A stretch of DNA of 64,000 bases. Origin: Eledone cirrhosa (lineage: Eukaryota). A program made the translations under genes and the position numbers. The stretch is from NCBI GenBank assembly GCA_964016885.1, contig CAXHJY010001318.1:1-64000 (forward strand), given 5' to 3'. The notes under the pieces are model-generated. The model made no database searches. It was not told where the DNA came from and saw nothing but the letters and a program-made list of their open reading frames with translations. Position 1 is the first letter of the stretch, and every line of letters begins with the position of its first letter. This document shows positions 43,722-56,760 of the stretch, piece by piece.

Positions 43722-44143
43722 ATTGTATGACACTCTGTCTAGCTCTACACCTCGCTACTGACGTGAACCTAAACATCGAGTGCTCGGACACTTTAACATC
43801 TACAACTTCGTATCTACCTCATTCTAATTATACTCCGTCATTCTTATTTTAAAGAAGTAACATGACTTTCAGTGCTTGATTTGAATGTTTACTGTCGAAA
43901 CGGCTTGAGCTCAGCCGTCGGGGTCCTACTCGTTCCTATTACCCACTCTACTACCCTAAGTATTGAGTACTTTGGAGCGTTATGGTCCATCTGGTTCCTT
44001 ACCACATTTCCTTCGTTATATATATATATATATATATATTAGAAGATACAAGGATGTGTGGTTGCTGCATAAAGTGTATTTAGAAATAAGAGGAAAGCAG
44101 AACGGGATATATTTCCCTTCATCAGTTGTCTGTTGGGGACCAT

Positions 44144-44351: not shown

Positions 44352-45193
44352 AATGATGTAATTAATAAAATGATGTAAGTTTCTAACACATTGCATTCTT
44401 CATCATTATATACCAAATCCCGCCGAGGTTGACTTTGCCTTTCATCCTTACGGGGTCGATAAAATAAAGTACCAGTAATTAACTGGGTATTTGCTGGCCT
44501 TGTGCCTAAAGTAGAAACAATTATATATGTATGTATATATATACATTATATATATATATTCATACACACATATATAGTCTCGCTGTAAATTTAGGCACAA
44601 GTTATAGAAACAGCAATCTTAAAAGGCAGCCCCCGCTTTTGCTCTATTAGAATTGTTCCATATTTGACAGCTTCTTCCGGCCCCTATAAAATGTCTCTCT
44701 TTATATGATGGATAGTGTATATATATATATATATACATACATATATACACATTGTATATATATATACATATATATATACACATTTATATATATATATATT
44801 TATATTTTGTGGTGTGGTCTGTGTCAATGTAATTGTGTATTAGCTTGTTTCTATATGAGTGTCTATATATATGTGTGTATGTATATATATATATATATAT
44901 AAAAACAAATAACGAAACGAAATTAAATTTCGTTTCGTTTGTAACTCACTTTTGTATGACTGACGCTTAAACAATTAAGTTAAAAATGTACATCCACATA
45001 TGTATACTGAAATACTAGTATGCATATGAATACACACACGTATACATATGTAGATGTACCGAGTTTTTCACTGGTCACTTTACTGTGAGTGTCCAGCTAT
45101 TCTGTATGTAAACACACAGACAAACCGGTTTTTAGAGTCATACTGGTTTTTGAGGAAACACCTTTCCTCTATTCTCCAGAAAGCCAGACAAGG

Positions 45194-45238
45194 AATATTG
45201 AACTAGTTTCGATGTTGTTACATCTCATCAGCAATATT
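45194..45238 (-). ncRNA. Type I hammerhead ribozyme, first of 11 copies on - in the left arm (every 466 bp, last at 49854-49898)
   Basis: Reverse complement of aatattgaactagtttcgatgttgttacatctcatcagcaatatt is the same motif as 50789-50833. Confidence 0.88.
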
Positions 45239-48200
45239 TACCTATCTTCCGGCCTTTTTAGAGAATCGTAAAAGCACATATCGTTATATGCTTTTTCTAT
45301 GAAAATTAGTAGTGGGCAGACTAATTTGCATAGACCGTGAGTACGTACCGGTTCAACGGAGACGATAAAAACAAATAACGAAACGAAATTAAATTTCGTT
45401 TCGTTTGTAACTCACTTTTGTATGACTGACGCTTAAACAATTAAGTTAAAAATGTACATCCACATATGTATACTGAAATACTAGTATGCATATGAATACA
45501 CACACGTATACATATGTAGATGTACCGAGTTTTTCACTGGTCACTTTACTGTGAGTGTCCAGCTATTCTGTATGTAAACACACAGACAAACCGGTTTTTA
45601 GAGTCATACTGGTTTTTGAGGAAACACCTTTCCTCTATTCTCCAGAAAGCCAGACAAGGAATATTGAACTAGTTTCGATGTTGTTACATCTCATCAGCAA
45701 TATTTACCTATCTTCCGGCCTTTTTAGAGAATCGTAAAAGCACATATCGTTATATGCTTTTTCTATGAAAATTAGTAGTGGGCAGACTAATTTGCATAGA
45801 CCGTGAGTACGTACCGGTTCAACGGAGACGATAAAAACAAATAACGAAACGAAATTAAATTTCGTTTCGTTTGTAACTCACTTTTGTATGACTGACGCTT
45901 AAACAATTAAGTTAAAAATGTACATCCACATATGTATACTGAAATACTAGTATGCATATGAATACACACACGTATACATATGTAGATGTACCGAGTTTTT
46001 CACTGGTCACTTTACTGTGAGTGTCCAGCTATTCTGTATGTAAACACACAGACAAACCGGTTTTTAGAGTCATACTGGTTTTTGAGGAAACACCTTTCCT
46101 CTATTCTCCAGAAAGCCAGACAAGGAATATTGAACTAGTTTCGATGTTGTTACATCTCATCAGCAATATTTACCTATCTTCCGGCCTTTTTAGAGAATCG
46201 TAAAAGCACATATCGTTATATGCTTTTTCTATGAAAATTAGTAGTGGGCAGACTAATTTGCATAGACCGTGAGTACGTACCGGTTCAACGGAGACGATAA
46301 AAACAAATAACGAAACGAAATTAAATTTCGTTTCGTTTGTAACTCACTTTTGTATGACTGACGCTTAAACAATTAAGTTAAAAATGTACATCCACATATG
46401 TATACTGAAATACTAGTATGCATATGAATACACACACGTATACATATGTAGATGTACCGAGTTTTTCACTGGTCACTTTACTGTGAGTGTCCAGCTATTC
46501 TGTATGTAAACACACAGACAAACCGGTTTTTAGAGTCATACTGGTTTTTGAGGAAACACCTTTCCTCTATTCTCCAGAAAGCCAGACAAGGAATATTGAA
46601 CTAGTTTCGATGTTGTTACATCTCATCAGCAATATTTACCTATCTTCCGGCCTTTTTAGAGAATCGTAAAAGCACATATCGTTATATGCTTTTTCTATGA
46701 AAATTAGTAGTGGGCAGACTAATTTGCATAGACCGTGAGTACGTACCGGTTCAACGGAGACGATAAAAACAAATAACGAAACGAAATTAAATTTCGTTTC
46801 GTTTGTAACTCACTTTTGTATGACTGACGCTTAAACAATTAAGTTAAAAATGTACATCCACATATGTATACTGAAATACTAGTATGCATATGAATACACA
46901 CACGTATACATATGTAGATGTACCGAGTTTTTCACTGGTCACTTTACTGTGAGTGTCCAGCTATTCTGTATGTAAACACACAGACAAACCGGTTTTTAGA
47001 GTCATACTGGTTTTTGAGGAAACACCTTTCCTCTATTCTCCAGAAAGCCAGACAAGGAATATTGAACTAGTTTCGATGTTGTTACATCTCATCAGCAATA
47101 TTTACCTATCTTCCGGCCTTTTTAGAGAATCGTAAAAGCACATATCGTTATATGCTTTTTCTATGAAAATTAGTAGTGGGCAGACTAATTTGCATAGACC
47201 GTGAGTACGTACCGGTTCAACGGAGACGATAAAAACAAATAACGAAACGAAATTAAATTTCGTTTCGTTTGTAACTCACTTTTGTATGACTGACGCTTAA
47301 ACAATTAAGTTAAAAATGTACATCCACATATGTATACTGAAATACTAGTATGCATATGAATACACACACGTATACATATGTAGATGTACCGAGTTTTTCA
47401 CTGGTCACTTTACTGTGAGTGTCCAGCTATTCTGTATGTAAACACACAGACAAACCGGTTTTTAGAGTCATACTGGTTTTTGAGGAAACACCTTTCCTCT
47501 ATTCTCCAGAAAGCCAGACAAGGAATATTGAACTAGTTTCGATGTTGTTACATCTCATCAGCAATATTTACCTATCTTCCGGCCTTTTTAGAGAATCGTA
47601 AAAGCACATATCGTTATATGCTTTTTCTATGAAAATTAGTAGTGGGCAGACTAATTTGCATAGACCGTGAGTACGTACCGGTTCAACGGAGACGATAAAA
47701 ACAAATAACGAAACGAAATTAAATTTCGTTTCGTTTGTAACTCACTTTTGTATGACTGACGCTTAAACAATTAAGTTAAAAATGTACATCCACATATGTA
47801 TACTGAAATACTAGTATGCATATGAATACACACACGTATACATATGTAGATGTACCGAGTTTTTCACTGGTCACTTTACTGTGAGTGTCCAGCTATTCTG
47901 TATGTAAACACACAGACAAACCGGTTTTTAGAGTCATACTGGTTTTTGAGGAAACACCTTTCCTCTATTCTCCAGAAAGCCAGACAAGGAATATTGAACT
48001 AGTTTCGATGTTGTTACATCTCATCAGCAATATTTACCTATCTTCCGGCCTTTTTAGAGAATCGTAAAAGCACATATCGTTATATGCTTTTTCTATGAAA
48101 ATTAGTAGTGGGCAGACTAATTTGCATAGACCGTGAGTACGTACCGGTTCAACGGAGACGATAAAAACAAATAACGAAACGAAATTAAATTTCGTTTCGT

Positions 48201-50788
48201 TTGTAACTCACTTTTGTATGACTGACGCTTAAACAATTAAGTTAAAAATGTACATCCACATATGTATACTGAAATACTAGTATGCATATGAATACACACA
48301 CGTATACATATGTAGATGTACCGAGTTTTTCACTGGTCACTTTACTGTGAGTGTCCAGCTATTCTGTATGTAAACACACAGACAAACCGGTTTTTAGAGT
48401 CATACTGGTTTTTGAGGAAACACCTTTCCTCTATTCTCCAGAAAGCCAGACAAGGAATATTGAACTAGTTTCGATGTTGTTACATCTCATCAGCAATATT
48501 TACCTATCTTCCGGCCTTTTTAGAGAATCGTAAAAGCACATATCGTTATATGCTTTTTCTATGAAAATTAGTAGTGGGCAGACTAATTTGCATAGACCGT
48601 GAGTACGTACCGGTTCAACGGAGACGATAAAAACAAATAACGAAACGAAATTAAATTTCGTTTCGTTTGTAACTCACTTTTGTATGACTGACGCTTAAAC
48701 AATTAAGTTAAAAATGTACATCCACATATGTATACTGAAATACTAGTATGCATATGAATACACACACGTATACATATGTAGATGTACCGAGTTTTTCACT
48801 GGTCACTTTACTGTGAGTGTCCAGCTATTCTGTATGTAAACACACAGACAAACCGGTTTTTAGAGTCATACTGGTTTTTGAGGAAACACCTTTCCTCTAT
48901 TCTCCAGAAAGCCAGACAAGGAATATTGAACTAGTTTCGATGTTGTTACATCTCATCAGCAATATTTACCTATCTTCCGGCCTTTTTAGAGAATCGTAAA
49001 AGCACATATCGTTATATGCTTTTTCTATGAAAATTAGTAGTGGGCAGACTAATTTGCATAGACCGTGAGTACGTACCGGTTCAACGGAGACGATAAAAAC
49101 AAATAACGAAACGAAATTAAATTTCGTTTCGTTTGTAACTCACTTTTGTATGACTGACGCTTAAACAATTAAGTTAAAAATGTACATCCACATATGTATA
49201 CTGAAATACTAGTATGCATATGAATACACACACGTATACATATGTAGATGTACCGAGTTTTTCACTGGTCACTTTACTGTGAGTGTCCAGCTATTCTGTA
49301 TGTAAACACACAGACAAACCGGTTTTTAGAGTCATACTGGTTTTTGAGGAAACACCTTTCCTCTATTCTCCAGAAAGCCAGACAAGGAATATTGAACTAG
49401 TTTCGATGTTGTTACATCTCATCAGCAATATTTACCTATCTTCCGGCCTTTTTAGAGAATCGTAAAAGCACATATCGTTATATGCTTTTTCTATGAAAAT
49501 TAGTAGTGGGCAGACTAATTTGCATAGACCGTGAGTACGTACCGGTTCAACGGAGACGATAAAAACAAATAACGAAACGAAATTAAATTTCGTTTCGTTT
49601 GTAACTCACTTTTGTATGACTGACGCTTAAACAATTAAGTTAAAAATGTACATCCACATATGTATACTGAAATACTAGTATGCATATGAATACACACACG
49701 TATACATATGTAGATGTACCGAGTTTTTCACTGGTCACTTTACTGTGAGTGTCCAGCTATTCTGTATGTAAACACACAGACAAACCGGTTTTTAGAGTCA
49801 TACTGGTTTTTGAGGAAACACCTTTCCTCTATTCTCCAGAAAGCCAGACAAGGAATATTGAACTAGTTTCGATGTTGTTACATCTCATCAGCAATATTTA
49901 CCTATCTTCCGGCCTTTTTAGAGAATCGTAAAAGCACATATCGTTATATGCTTTTTCTATGAAAATTAGTAGTGGGCAGACTAATTTGCATAGACCGTGA
50001 GTACGTACCGGTTCAACGGAGACGATAAAAACAAATAACGAAACGAAATTAAATTTCGTTTCGTTTGTAACTCACTTTTGTATGACTGACGCTTAAACAA
50101 TTAAGTTAAAAATGTACATCCACATATGTATACTGAAATACTAGTATGCATATGAATACACACACGTATACATATGTAGATGTACCGAGTTTTTCACTGG
50201 TCACTTTACTGTGAGTGTCCAGCTATTCTGTATGTAAACACACAGACAAACCGGTTTTTAGAGTCATACTGGTTTTTGAGGAAACACCTTTCCTCTATTC
50301 TCCAGAAAGCCAGACAAGGAATATTGAACTAGTTTCGATGTTGTTACATCGAAACTAGTTCAATATTCCTTGTCTGGCTTTCTGGAGAATAGAGGAAAGG
50401 TGTTTCCTCAAAAACCAGTATGACTCTAAAAACCGGTTTGTCTGTGTGTTTACATACAGAATAGCTGGACACTCACAGTAAAGTGACCAGTGAAAAACTC
50501 GGTACATCTACATATGTATACGTGTGTGTATTCATATGCATACTAGTATTTCAGTATACATATGTGGATGTACATTTTTAACTTAATTGTTTAAGCGTCA
50601 GTCATACAAAAGTGAGTTACAAACGAAACGAAATTTAATTTCGTTTCGTTATTTGTTTTTATCGTCTCCGTTGAACCGGTACGTACTCACGGTCTATGCA
50701 AATTAGTCTGCCCACTACTAATTTTCATAGAAAAAGCATATAACGATATGTGCTTTTACGATTCTCTAAAAAGGCCGGAAGATAGGTA

Positions 50789-50833
50789 AATATTGCTGAT
50801 GAGATGTAACAACATCGAAACTAGTTCAATATT
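50789..50833 (+). ncRNA. Type I hammerhead ribozyme, first of 12 copies on + in the right arm (every 466 bp, last at 55915-55959)
   Basis: Helix I aatattg/caatatt; core CTGATGA; helix II gatgt-aaca-acatc; GAAA; palindromic helix III aactagtt; NUH triplet GUU with predicted cleavage after 50826. Matches the hammerhead consensus. Confidence 0.88.
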
Positions 50834-53800
50834 CCTTGTCTGGCTTTCTGGAGAATAGAGGAAAGGTGTTTCCTCAAAAACCAGTATGACTCTAAAAACC
50901 GGTTTGTCTGTGTGTTTACATACAGAATAGCTGGACACTCACAGTAAAGTGACCAGTGAAAAACTCGGTACATCTACATATGTATACGTGTGTGTATTCA
51001 TATGCATACTAGTATTTCAGTATACATATGTGGATGTACATTTTTAACTTAATTGTTTAAGCGTCAGTCATACAAAAGTGAGTTACAAACGAAACGAAAT
51101 TTAATTTCGTTTCGTTATTTGTTTTTATCGTCTCCGTTGAACCGGTACGTACTCACGGTCTATGCAAATTAGTCTGCCCACTACTAATTTTCATAGAAAA
51201 AGCATATAACGATATGTGCTTTTACGATTCTCTAAAAAGGCCGGAAGATAGGTAAATATTGCTGATGAGATGTAACAACATCGAAACTAGTTCAATATTC
51301 CTTGTCTGGCTTTCTGGAGAATAGAGGAAAGGTGTTTCCTCAAAAACCAGTATGACTCTAAAAACCGGTTTGTCTGTGTGTTTACATACAGAATAGCTGG
51401 ACACTCACAGTAAAGTGACCAGTGAAAAACTCGGTACATCTACATATGTATACGTGTGTGTATTCATATGCATACTAGTATTTCAGTATACATATGTGGA
51501 TGTACATTTTTAACTTAATTGTTTAAGCGTCAGTCATACAAAAGTGAGTTACAAACGAAACGAAATTTAATTTCGTTTCGTTATTTGTTTTTATCGTCTC
51601 CGTTGAACCGGTACGTACTCACGGTCTATGCAAATTAGTCTGCCCACTACTAATTTTCATAGAAAAAGCATATAACGATATGTGCTTTTACGATTCTCTA
51701 AAAAGGCCGGAAGATAGGTAAATATTGCTGATGAGATGTAACAACATCGAAACTAGTTCAATATTCCTTGTCTGGCTTTCTGGAGAATAGAGGAAAGGTG
51801 TTTCCTCAAAAACCAGTATGACTCTAAAAACCGGTTTGTCTGTGTGTTTACATACAGAATAGCTGGACACTCACAGTAAAGTGACCAGTGAAAAACTCGG
51901 TACATCTACATATGTATACGTGTGTGTATTCATATGCATACTAGTATTTCAGTATACATATGTGGATGTACATTTTTAACTTAATTGTTTAAGCGTCAGT
52001 CATACAAAAGTGAGTTACAAACGAAACGAAATTTAATTTCGTTTCGTTATTTGTTTTTATCGTCTCCGTTGAACCGGTACGTACTCACGGTCTATGCAAA
52101 TTAGTCTGCCCACTACTAATTTTCATAGAAAAAGCATATAACGATATGTGCTTTTACGATTCTCTAAAAAGGCCGGAAGATAGGTAAATATTGCTGATGA
52201 GATGTAACAACATCGAAACTAGTTCAATATTCCTTGTCTGGCTTTCTGGAGAATAGAGGAAAGGTGTTTCCTCAAAAACCAGTATGACTCTAAAAACCGG
52301 TTTGTCTGTGTGTTTACATACAGAATAGCTGGACACTCACAGTAAAGTGACCAGTGAAAAACTCGGTACATCTACATATGTATACGTGTGTGTATTCATA
52401 TGCATACTAGTATTTCAGTATACATATGTGGATGTACATTTTTAACTTAATTGTTTAAGCGTCAGTCATACAAAAGTGAGTTACAAACGAAACGAAATTT
52501 AATTTCGTTTCGTTATTTGTTTTTATCGTCTCCGTTGAACCGGTACGTACTCACGGTCTATGCAAATTAGTCTGCCCACTACTAATTTTCATAGAAAAAG
52601 CATATAACGATATGTGCTTTTACGATTCTCTAAAAAGGCCGGAAGATAGGTAAATATTGCTGATGAGATGTAACAACATCGAAACTAGTTCAATATTCCT
52701 TGTCTGGCTTTCTGGAGAATAGAGGAAAGGTGTTTCCTCAAAAACCAGTATGACTCTAAAAACCGGTTTGTCTGTGTGTTTACATACAGAATAGCTGGAC
52801 ACTCACAGTAAAGTGACCAGTGAAAAACTCGGTACATCTACATATGTATACGTGTGTGTATTCATATGCATACTAGTATTTCAGTATACATATGTGGATG
52901 TACATTTTTAACTTAATTGTTTAAGCGTCAGTCATACAAAAGTGAGTTACAAACGAAACGAAATTTAATTTCGTTTCGTTATTTGTTTTTATCGTCTCCG
53001 TTGAACCGGTACGTACTCACGGTCTATGCAAATTAGTCTGCCCACTACTAATTTTCATAGAAAAAGCATATAACGATATGTGCTTTTACGATTCTCTAAA
53101 AAGGCCGGAAGATAGGTAAATATTGCTGATGAGATGTAACAACATCGAAACTAGTTCAATATTCCTTGTCTGGCTTTCTGGAGAATAGAGGAAAGGTGTT
53201 TCCTCAAAAACCAGTATGACTCTAAAAACCGGTTTGTCTGTGTGTTTACATACAGAATAGCTGGACACTCACAGTAAAGTGACCAGTGAAAAACTCGGTA
53301 CATCTACATATGTATACGTGTGTGTATTCATATGCATACTAGTATTTCAGTATACATATGTGGATGTACATTTTTAACTTAATTGTTTAAGCGTCAGTCA
53401 TACAAAAGTGAGTTACAAACGAAACGAAATTTAATTTCGTTTCGTTATTTGTTTTTATCGTCTCCGTTGAACCGGTACGTACTCACGGTCTATGCAAATT
53501 AGTCTGCCCACTACTAATTTTCATAGAAAAAGCATATAACGATATGTGCTTTTACGATTCTCTAAAAAGGCCGGAAGATAGGTAAATATTGCTGATGAGA
53601 TGTAACAACATCGAAACTAGTTCAATATTCCTTGTCTGGCTTTCTGGAGAATAGAGGAAAGGTGTTTCCTCAAAAACCAGTATGACTCTAAAAACCGGTT
53701 TGTCTGTGTGTTTACATACAGAATAGCTGGACACTCACAGTAAAGTGACCAGTGAAAAACTCGGTACATCTACATATGTATACGTGTGTGTATTCATATG

Positions 53801-56180
53801 CATACTAGTATTTCAGTATACATATGTGGATGTACATTTTTAACTTAATTGTTTAAGCGTCAGTCATACAAAAGTGAGTTACAAACGAAACGAAATTTAA
53901 TTTCGTTTCGTTATTTGTTTTTATCGTCTCCGTTGAACCGGTACGTACTCACGGTCTATGCAAATTAGTCTGCCCACTACTAATTTTCATAGAAAAAGCA
54001 TATAACGATATGTGCTTTTACGATTCTCTAAAAAGGCCGGAAGATAGGTAAATATTGCTGATGAGATGTAACAACATCGAAACTAGTTCAATATTCCTTG
54101 TCTGGCTTTCTGGAGAATAGAGGAAAGGTGTTTCCTCAAAAACCAGTATGACTCTAAAAACCGGTTTGTCTGTGTGTTTACATACAGAATAGCTGGACAC
54201 TCACAGTAAAGTGACCAGTGAAAAACTCGGTACATCTACATATGTATACGTGTGTGTATTCATATGCATACTAGTATTTCAGTATACATATGTGGATGTA
54301 CATTTTTAACTTAATTGTTTAAGCGTCAGTCATACAAAAGTGAGTTACAAACGAAACGAAATTTAATTTCGTTTCGTTATTTGTTTTTATCGTCTCCGTT
54401 GAACCGGTACGTACTCACGGTCTATGCAAATTAGTCTGCCCACTACTAATTTTCATAGAAAAAGCATATAACGATATGTGCTTTTACGATTCTCTAAAAA
54501 GGCCGGAAGATAGGTAAATATTGCTGATGAGATGTAACAACATCGAAACTAGTTCAATATTCCTTGTCTGGCTTTCTGGAGAATAGAGGAAAGGTGTTTC
54601 CTCAAAAACCAGTATGACTCTAAAAACCGGTTTGTCTGTGTGTTTACATACAGAATAGCTGGACACTCACAGTAAAGTGACCAGTGAAAAACTCGGTACA
54701 TCTACATATGTATACGTGTGTGTATTCATATGCATACTAGTATTTCAGTATACATATGTGGATGTACATTTTTAACTTAATTGTTTAAGCGTCAGTCATA
54801 CAAAAGTGAGTTACAAACGAAACGAAATTTAATTTCGTTTCGTTATTTGTTTTTATCGTCTCCGTTGAACCGGTACGTACTCACGGTCTATGCAAATTAG
54901 TCTGCCCACTACTAATTTTCATAGAAAAAGCATATAACGATATGTGCTTTTACGATTCTCTAAAAAGGCCGGAAGATAGGTAAATATTGCTGATGAGATG
55001 TAACAACATCGAAACTAGTTCAATATTCCTTGTCTGGCTTTCTGGAGAATAGAGGAAAGGTGTTTCCTCAAAAACCAGTATGACTCTAAAAACCGGTTTG
55101 TCTGTGTGTTTACATACAGAATAGCTGGACACTCACAGTAAAGTGACCAGTGAAAAACTCGGTACATCTACATATGTATACGTGTGTGTATTCATATGCA
55201 TACTAGTATTTCAGTATACATATGTGGATGTACATTTTTAACTTAATTGTTTAAGCGTCAGTCATACAAAAGTGAGTTACAAACGAAACGAAATTTAATT
55301 TCGTTTCGTTATTTGTTTTTATCGTCTCCGTTGAACCGGTACGTACTCACGGTCTATGCAAATTAGTCTGCCCACTACTAATTTTCATAGAAAAAGCATA
55401 TAACGATATGTGCTTTTACGATTCTCTAAAAAGGCCGGAAGATAGGTAAATATTGCTGATGAGATGTAACAACATCGAAACTAGTTCAATATTCCTTGTC
55501 TGGCTTTCTGGAGAATAGAGGAAAGGTGTTTCCTCAAAAACCAGTATGACTCTAAAAACCGGTTTGTCTGTGTGTTTACATACAGAATAGCTGGACACTC
55601 ACAGTAAAGTGACCAGTGAAAAACTCGGTACATCTACATATGTATACGTGTGTGTATTCATATGCATACTAGTATTTCAGTATACATATGTGGATGTACA
55701 TTTTTAACTTAATTGTTTAAGCGTCAGTCATACAAAAGTGAGTTACAAACGAAACGAAATTTAATTTCGTTTCGTTATTTGTTTTTATCGTCTCCGTTGA
55801 ACCGGTACGTACTCACGGTCTATGCAAATTAGTCTGCCCACTACTAATTTTCATAGAAAAAGCATATAACGATATGTGCTTTTACGATTCTCTAAAAAGG
55901 CCGGAAGATAGGTAAATATTGCTGATGAGATGTAACAACATCGAAACTAGTTCAATATTCCTTGTCTGGCTTTCTGGAGAATAGAGGAAAGGTGTTTCCT
56001 CAAAAACCAGTATGACTCTAAAAACCGGTTTGTCTGTGTGTTTACATACAGAATAGCTGGACACTCACAGTAAAGTGACCAGTGAAAAACTCGGTACATC
56101 TACATATGTATACGTGTGTGTATTCATATGCATACTAGTATTTCAGTATACATATGTGGATGTACATTTTTAACTTAATT

Positions 56181-56220
<40 letters not shown>

Positions 56221-56491: not shown

Positions 56492-56757
56492 TAACGAAGG
56501 AAATGTGGTAAGGAACCAGGTGGACCATAACGCACCAAAGTACTCAATACTTAGGGTAGTAGAGTGGGTAATAGGAACGAGTAGGACCCCGACGGCTGAG
56601 CTCAAGCCGTTTCGACGGCTAATTCTGGACTAAATGAAAATTTTTATCCTGGTATATGAATAGCCGGCTATTCATATACCAGGATAAAAATTTTCATTTA
56701 ATCCAGAATTAGCCGTCGAAACGGCTTGAGCTCAGCCGTCGGGGTCCTACTCGTTCC

Positions 56758-56760
<3 letters not shown>
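56492..56760. mobile_element. Fold-back element, family B (3' half of a hammerhead), in (TA)n
   Basis: Near-perfect palindrome ~56572-56759 centred at tagcc|ggcta (56665/56666). Contains GAAAC-ggct tgagctc agcc-GTC. Other family B pieces at ~1790-1890, 12890-12962, 15363-15420 and 43860-44020. Confidence 0.78.

What the first reader, a model, noticed from the sequence alone, without database searches (positions are those of the whole stretch)
50320..50367. The inversion point of the giant palindrome is helix II of the ribozyme
Seen: the centre reads ...agtttc GATGT tgtt ACATC gaaact... The axis of symmetry is the gatgt/acatc stem of the hammerhead, and the CTGATGA half is missing there. Inference: the arms were joined by snap-back or 5-nt microhomology at this built-in hairpin. 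Family A junctions (~6512, ~6890, ~15060, ~36808) and a family D junction (~42788) also fall in or next to the hammerhead core. This suggests reverse transcription stalls or switches template at the ribozyme fold.
Basis: partly seen in the sequence, partly recalled or inferred. Interest (0 to 1): 0.75.

Follow-up and report, generated by a model that had tools for sequence, protein, structure and literature searches.

The report
Two-armed retrozyme joined at a hairpin
The mirror point of this 11-kb palindrome does lie in the ribozyme's helix II, but other copies of the same repeat join anywhere along it, so this is likely an ordinary short-overlap join of two DNA copies made by a Penelope-type jumping-gene enzyme rather than a stall at the ribozyme; the neighbouring families that do join at their ribozyme probably do so because their capped RNA begins there.

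Summary
Observation confirmed; the stall idea is not supported. The centre is helix II of a minimal type I hammerhead in a 466-nt unit, with 11.7 antisense and 12.5 sense identical copies between (TA)n tracts.

In 49 other inverted insertions of this family, 8 of 98 arm ends fall in the ribozyme (8.7 expected) and none has both ends there. Genome-wide, near-symmetric joins number 3 at helix II against 3 and 4 at two non-ribozyme sites, one with the same in-register geometry.

The outer ends lie at two fixed sites about 70 nt apart, the Penelope-like (PLE) tail signature. A variant private to this locus is in both arms. Best reading: both target strands primed cDNA on one probably circular RNA, and helix II supplied a 5-nt overlap.

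Families A and D do cluster at their ribozymes, but at the first base of helix I, with a hard upstream edge. An extra G precedes it (1,868 against 416 A+T in family A), and family A has a TATA box 30 nt upstream: likely run-off at a capped transcript start.

The scan found the two-armed retrozyme reading before on other DNA. No independent reads confirm this junction.

The parts
44881..44898 (.). Left (TA)n tract, inferred target
44899..50350 (-). Left arm: 11.7 identical 466-nt units in antisense; outer end at unit position 333 (long fixed end), inner end at position 8
50337..50350 (.). Junction: helix II stem-loop of the hammerhead; 50346-50350 is the 5-nt overlap shared by both arms
   Evidence: DNA hairpin energy -2.0 kcal/mol
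50346..56185 (+). Right arm: 12.5 identical units in sense; inner end at unit position 17, outer end at position 264 (short fixed end)
50789..50833 (+). First complete minimal type I hammerhead of the right arm: 7-bp helix I, CUGAUGA, 5-bp helix II, GAAA, 2-bp helix III with palindromic centre, predicted GUU cut site; repeated every 466 nt
   Evidence: no Rfam match at gathering score
50760..50781 (+). 22-nt variant word found only in this insertion, in all 23 units that cover it, on both arms
   Evidence: 23 of 23 genome-wide matches
56186..56217 (.). Right (TA)n tract, inferred target; the flank beyond it is single-copy in the assembly
6455..6643 (.). Family A inverted insertion (PLE pseudo-LTR fragment), junction 6511/6516 at the hammerhead core
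6820..6965 (.). Family A subfamily inverted insertion, junction 6881/6894
14931..15113 (.). Family A inverted insertion, junction 15058/15063
36747..36918 (.). Family A inverted insertion, junction 36790/36806
42535..42998 (.). Family D inverted insertion; the + arm begins in helix I just before CUGAAGA; 116-nt helix II

Best explanation
The palindrome is one very young insertion of a 466-nt hammerhead repeat (non-LTR retrozyme) whose two arms were likely reverse-transcribed by a Penelope-like element's enzyme from both strands of a cut (TA)n target, probably rolling round one RNA circle, and then likely joined through the 5-nt complementarity of helix II, which serves as a convenient overlap and is not a junction hotspot in this family. 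Shown: the anatomy, the two fixed outer ends, the variant private to both arms, junction positions spread round the unit, and equal numbers of symmetric joins at non-ribozyme sites. Inferred: the enzyme, the priming on both strands, the circular template and the joining step. End annealing cannot be told from a brief fold-back followed by annealing to the other cDNA. The clustering in families A and D has a different, inferred cause: their template is a linear capped transcript that starts at the first base of hammerhead helix I, so both cDNAs run off there.
For: Fixed outer ends: 1,970 exact copies of the 333 end joined to TA. In 50 inverted insertions anchored there, the other arm ends at 259-264 in 33 of the 35 resolved; 15 ran off the fetched DNA. 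PLE enzyme cuts and extends both target strands and starts at two adjacent RNA sites in vitro (PMC11167929). In 47 of 49 junctions the two inner ends are more than 4 nt apart, which a fold-back cannot give. Ribozyme not enriched: 8 of 98 ends, 8.7 expected. Near-symmetric joins: 3 at helix II, 3 at the hairpin at 63-80, 4 at 367-382. L275 has the same in-register geometry at the non-ribozyme hairpin, with arms of about 185 and over 1,500 nt. One template: variant word in 23 of 23 hits here; a second array has 14 of 16 identical full units across both arms with an asymmetric junction. Family A: 37 of 68 inverted ends at -8 to -2 and 1 of 68 at -50 to -9; TATA box 30-34 nt upstream in 27 of 28 read-through copies scored; G 1,868 against A+T 416 where the template has C. 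An extra G marks capped full-length L1 insertions (PMC11702581). Family D: 6 of 8 ends at -7 are preceded by G.
Against: No read of the source individual was available, so the junction and the unit count rest on the assembly of an unplaced 81-kb contig. At this locus alone, snap-back plus a one-unit slip fits the lengths (5,840 minus 466 is 69 nt short of the full palindrome). Exactly symmetric junctions are 2 of 49 against about 0.1 expected (post hoc), so a small fold-back class may exist. Ends near the predicted cut site are mildly raised (5 against 2.0, p 0.047 uncorrected). Arm-sharing is modest family-wide: arms are closer to each other than to any other sampled locus in 20 of 38 insertions, tied in 10, further in 8. 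A 70-unit array with 34 distinct units shows that later tandem expansion also happens. Of the first 30 G rows, 13 can be explained by the partner arm or flank and 1 is a read-through variant. No RNA data. The PLE that mobilises the 466-nt unit was not identified.
Confidence: 0.75

Rival explanations
1. Reverse transcription stalls or switches template at the hammerhead fold, making the ribozyme a junction hotspot.
For: This junction is in register with helix II. Family A and D junctions cluster at their ribozymes. Ends near the cut site are mildly raised in the 466-nt family.
Against: No enrichment in the 466-nt family (8 of 98 against 8.7). Controls match helix II. The same insertion passes 23 ribozyme copies without a break. 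Family A and D ends sit at the 5' edge with an extra G. Family D's long helix II is read through.
Confidence: 0.08
2. Single-primed snap-back: the first cDNA folded at helix II and copied itself, with a one-unit slip or later expansion, and the copy then joined the second target end.
For: The retained loop is on the strand of the left cDNA; arm lengths are similar; both arms share a private variant. Self-priming was proposed for palindromes at PLE inverted junctions (PMC3846280). 2 of 49 junctions are exactly symmetric.
Against: The right arm is 388 nt longer and ends at the family's second fixed end, like asymmetric insertions that cannot be fold-backs. The hairpin is weak (-2.0 kcal/mol). 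L275 has the same geometry with very unequal arms.
Confidence: 0.1
3. Library or assembly artefact: a fold-back or amplification chimera, or a miscounted array.
For: Unplaced contig; 100% identical units; no independent read spans the junction.
Against: The flanks are not mirrored and the right flank is single-copy. The outer ends are the two different fixed ends seen in chromosomal copies and require an inversion point between them. Like arrays lie on chromosomes. No N in the window.
Confidence: 0.07

Closest known systems
Metazoan non-LTR retrozymes (Cervera and de la Pena 2020, PMC7229834, passages seen; Li, Clavereau and Pollet 2026, 10.64898/2026.07.22.740005, part 1 of 5 and passages seen)
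   Same: Non-coding tandem units, each with a type I hammerhead; proposed circular RNA and PLE origin.
   Different: Two opposed arms with fixed outer ends in (TA)n. The word 'inverted' occurs 0 times in the first paper and once, in the reference list, in the second. Circular RNA and cleavage were not tested here.
EN+ Penelope-like elements with inverted pseudo-LTRs and a tail (PMC8557442 passages; PMC3846280 passages; PMC11167929 parts 1-2 of 4)
   Same: Head-to-head inverted 5'-truncated copy, tail on one end only, (TA)n targets, hammerhead in the pseudo-LTR, two start sites, palindromes noted at the inverted junction.
   Different: The 466-nt unit has no ORF; the tail is about 70 nt rather than 30-40; arms are many units long. 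The papers explain junction palindromes by self-priming, whereas most junctions here are asymmetric.
L1 twin priming and the cap-derived extra G (PMC11702581, passages)
   Same: Two cDNAs primed from the two target ends and joined end to end with little or short homology; extra G at the junction of full-length copies.
   Different: In L1 the two cDNAs copy different parts of one linear RNA; here both start about 70 nt apart and copy the same sequence. The enzyme class differs.

Membership tests
Non-LTR retrozyme | At least two consecutive tandem units, each with a complete type I hammerhead | tested here: met
   23 motifs at 466-nt spacing; definition
Non-LTR retrozyme | Hammerhead folds below -5 kcal/mol (criterion of Li et al.) | tested here: met
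   -8.9 kcal/mol with helices I and II formed, though not better than shuffles (z -0.91); no Rfam match at gathering score
Non-LTR retrozyme | No protein-coding capacity | tested here: met
   Longest ATG-started ORF 19 aa sense and 50 aa antisense on the circularised unit
Non-LTR retrozyme | Transcribed, self-cleaves, forms circular RNA | not testable with these tools
   No RNA holder listed; circle inferred from DNA only
PLE-type insertion | Inverted head-to-head arms with a tail on one end (two fixed 3' ends) | tested here: met
   Ends at 333 and 259-264
PLE-type insertion | Insertion into (TA)n or AT-rich target | tested here: met
   Both ends here; second-arm ends
PLE-type insertion | Linked to an autonomous PLE (RT plus GIY-YIG endonuclease) | not tested
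   No partner sought for the 466-nt unit
Autonomous PLE (family A) | Pseudo-LTR with hammerhead followed by an RT ORF | tested here: met
   458 stop-free codons after the pseudo-LTR in L059; Atlas feature hits 0.93-0.97 to RT-domain clusters; no Pfam or PDB sequence match
Autonomous PLE (family A) | C-terminal GIY-YIG endonuclease and clade placement | not tested
   The fetched stretch ends inside the ORF
   8 of 98 against 8.7; 3 against 3 and 4 symmetric joins

The most novel reading that the evidence does not exclude
Penelope-like elements in this genome start their capped transcript at the very first base of hammerhead helix I (two unrelated families), so the ribozyme sits as a self-decapping switch at the RNA's 5' end: uncut capped RNA is the retrotransposition template and leaves a cap-derived G at inverted junctions. 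The retrozyme circle has no such end and is rolled round from both target strands. Junction maps thus read out from DNA alone whether a PLE template was linear and capped or circular.
Probability: 0.55. Interest if true: 0.68.

Novelty: new variant of a known kind. Interest (0 to 1): 0.45.

Why it matters
How Penelope-like elements form inverted insertions, and what their hammerhead does, are stated as open in the papers read (PMC8557442, PMC11167929). This locus does not show a new role for the ribozyme as a stall site. The test it prompted does separate two template types by their junction maps: spread round the unit for the retrozyme, and piled at a probable capped start on helix I for two PLE-type families. 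That gives exact coordinates for CAGE, circular-RNA and in vitro dual-priming tests. It also offers dual priming, rather than self-priming, as the main source of PLE palindromes.

Tried and rejected
Rfam scan: 0 matches. Search for an empty site or alternate haplotype: a left-flank DNA search gave only repeat hits elsewhere (40 of 2,599 candidates scored) and a right-flank 23-mer is single-copy, so polymorphism could not be tested. Sequencing runs: no RNA holder listed. Contigs of four best-holding runs showed no strand-changing joints, and one position of the window's variant was not seen in them, so they are probably not the source. Laying three contig sets and one raw run on the junction gave only uninterrupted units or nothing, which is no evidence either way. 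First BLAST-based junction calls suggested fold-backs at the strong hairpin at 293-321; split alignment showed these were boundary errors, so they were rejected. An apparent hotspot at 233-267 (19 of 98) falls to 11 of 82 against 6.2 once very short arms are removed and is left open. A splice acceptor as the cause of the family A edge was considered, because an intron end maps to helix I in Drosophila virilis (PMC4209133) and family A has an AG there. It was set aside because no common upstream exon sequence appears in 30 copies and family D shows the same edge without an AG. Pfam and PDB searches of the family A ORF fragment gave nothing significant. Paper searches for an untemplated or extra G in Penelope elements returned 0 papers, and the twin-priming search returned 2 unrelated listings. 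The library lacks most subscription papers and bioRxiv supplements are closed, so absence from print is not established.

Full report
1. What is there. The window is the start of an 81,312-nt unplaced contig of a 3.0-Gb genome. From 44899 to 56185 lies an array of a 466-nt unit: 11.7 copies in antisense, then 12.5 in sense, 100% identical, with (TA)n on both sides. Each unit carries a minimal type I hammerhead: 7-bp helix I, CUGAUGA, 5-bp helix II, GAAA and a 2-bp helix III with a palindromic centre. This matches the metazoan type described as working in dimers (PMC4209133, passages). With position 1 at the C of CTGATGA, the left arm runs from 333 (outer) to 8 (inner) and the right arm from 17 (inner) to 264 (outer). 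They overlap by 5 nt, the 3' strand of helix II.

2. The outer ends show how it was inserted. The 333 end joined to TA occurs 1,970 times in the genome. I examined the first 71 matches on contig C1. The script classed 51 as inverted, 13 as single and 7 as running off the fetched DNA. I then dropped one duplicate (L160) and one false call (L164) and added L168, leaving 50. The second arm ends at 259-264 in 33 of the 35 that could be read. Two fixed ends a short distance apart, one per arm, is the PLE tail signature (PMC8557442 and PMC3846280, passages). A purified PLE protein cuts and extends both target strands and starts at two adjacent internal RNA sites that bound the tail (PMC11167929, parts 1-2 of 4). 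I infer that each arm is a separately primed cDNA.

3. One template, probably a circle. A 22-nt variant word occurs 23 times in the genome, all in this insertion and on both arms. An array on C4 has 14 of 16 identical full units across both arms with an asymmetric junction. The long-end arm exceeds one unit in 45 of 70 copies. Family-wide the signal is modest: arms are closer to each other than to any other sampled locus in 20 of 38, tied in 10, further in 8; 7 of 38 share a variant private within the sample. A linear multimer from a donor missing from the assembly, or later expansion as in the 70-unit array on C1, is not excluded.

4. Test of the ribozyme-hotspot idea in this family. Split alignment gave 49 clean junctions (L184 dropped as unresolved; the window excluded). 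Weighted by how often each position was passed, 8 of 98 inner ends fall in the 45-nt ribozyme (8.7 expected), 2 in core plus helix II (4.8) and 1 in helix II (2.7); no junction has both ends there. Ends near the predicted cut site are slightly raised (5 against 2.0, p 0.047, uncorrected). In 47 of 49 the two ends are more than 4 nt apart. Overlaps are mostly 0-1 nt or replaced by inserts; 12 of 49 have 2 nt or more and 1 has 5 or more (diverged copies lower these counts). Genome-wide pattern counts of near-symmetric joins give 3 at helix II including this one, 3 at the non-ribozyme hairpin at 63-80 and 4 at 367-382; the other nine all align to the family. One at 63-80 (L275) has the same in-register geometry as the window, with arms of about 185 and over 1,500 nt. 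Uniform placement predicts about 1.2 joins with both ends in helix II among the known copies. So a stem probably helped this join, but the ribozyme is not special.

5. Snap-back or overlap join. The loop is kept on the strand of the left cDNA, so a brief fold-back (-2.0 kcal/mol) is possible; self-priming was proposed for such palindromes (PMC3846280). The right arm, however, is 388 nt longer than the left and ends at the second fixed site, so self-copying alone needs an extra one-unit slip. Annealing of two cDNA ends, or fold-back followed by annealing to the other cDNA, give the same product and cannot be separated here.

6. Why families A and D do cluster. Family A (18,098 anchor matches) is the pseudo-LTR of an element with an RT-like ORF. 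The first 100 matches make 75 places: 29 read through upstream, 34 are inverted (2 duplicates dropped) and 10 are short single copies. Of 68 inverted ends, 37 lie at -8 to -2 and only 1 between -50 and -9. Helix I begins at -6. A TATA box lies 30-34 nt upstream in 27 of the 28 read-through copies scored, and -7/-6 is a C-A initiator step. Where the template has C before -6, the genome has G 1,868 times and A or T 416 times. Of the first 30 G rows, 16 are not explained by the partner arm or flank, 13 could be, and 1 is a read-through variant (with three rows reclassed by eye). An extra G marks capped full-length L1 insertions (PMC11702581, passages). Family D repeats the pattern: among 30 rows, 12 read through, 8 ends lie exactly at -7, the first base of helix I, and 6 of these 8 are preceded by G. 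To get there the enzyme passes a 116-nt, -42 kcal/mol helix II. A hard edge on the far side of the fold with an added G fits run-off at a capped start, not a stall. Caveats: the family A anchor includes the cut site, so arms ending there are undercounted, and no RNA data were available. In the 466-nt family the equivalent position holds 1 of 98 ends (1.2 expected), as expected of a template with no free end there.

7. Artefact check. The flanks are not mirrored, the right flank is single-copy, and the two different outer ends require an inversion point between them. No independent read spans the junction, and the unit count depends on the assembly.

8. Relation to what is known. The unit meets the sequence criteria for a non-LTR retrozyme (10.64898/2026.07.22.740005, part 1 of 5 and passages; PMC7229834, passages). 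It works like a PLE insertion, but no partner element was identified. PLE pseudo-LTR promoters are known (PMC2377424 and PMC3846280, passages). I found no report of a cap-derived G or of a start at helix I in PLEs in searches, which cover only part of the literature. Earlier unchecked notes of this scan reached the two-armed, rolling-circle reading for this and sister families on other DNA; my reading was recorded before seeing them, and a word search for the capped-start reading found none.

9. Verdict. Interest 0.45, carried by the junction-map contrast and the probable capped start at helix I rather than by the helix II coincidence.

Noticed in passing
window 56493-56759: Another (TA)n-flanked inverted insertion with a perfectly palindromic centre at 56665/56666 (95-nt arms) and a longer tail on one side; a related copy lies near 43890-44020.
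   Followed up: no
window 42787-42930; L242-L271: Family D (4,493 exact anchor matches) has a hammerhead-like motif with a 7-bp helix I and a 116-nt helix II (fold z -5.35), too long for common search descriptors.
   Followed up: partly
G000:C1:81846872-81880713 (L068-L072): Inverted insertion of the same family with arms of 2.2 and about 70 units; 34 distinct sequences among 70 full units, suggesting later tandem expansion.
   Followed up: partly
G000:C4:249653239-249661955 (L073-L074): Two-armed array of 13.7 and 5.5 units, nearly all identical; one inner end lies at unit 30-32, the predicted ribozyme cut site.
   Followed up: partly
window 50346-50811 against public runs: The unit is held in part by contigs of runs from 17 coded organisms; three laid contigs are 95-99% alike over about 60 nt. 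Shared ancestry or transfer was not examined.
   Followed up: no
unit positions 233-267 of the 466-nt family: Excess of arm inner ends around the short fixed end (19 of 98 against 8.6; 11 of 82 against 6.2 without very short arms).
   Followed up: partly
L145, L173, L243/L244, L254/L255: Junction inserts that repeat neighbouring element sequence one to three times, as from repeated slipping during end joining.
   Followed up: no
window 1318, 2155, 22505, 44298 (+); 11224, 13238 (-): Further CUGANGA...GAAA motifs in other repeats.
   Followed up: no
window 23704-23746, 34015-34068, 37034-37054, 43180-43255: Further fold-back elements of unassigned families.
   Followed up: no
G000:C1 rows, e.g. 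114060210-114060252 (L239/L240): Family A insertions in which both arms reach -6 with an extra G and meet with 1-4 nt between them; 8 such adjacent pairs among the first 100 rows. Only L239/L240 was read.
   Followed up: partly
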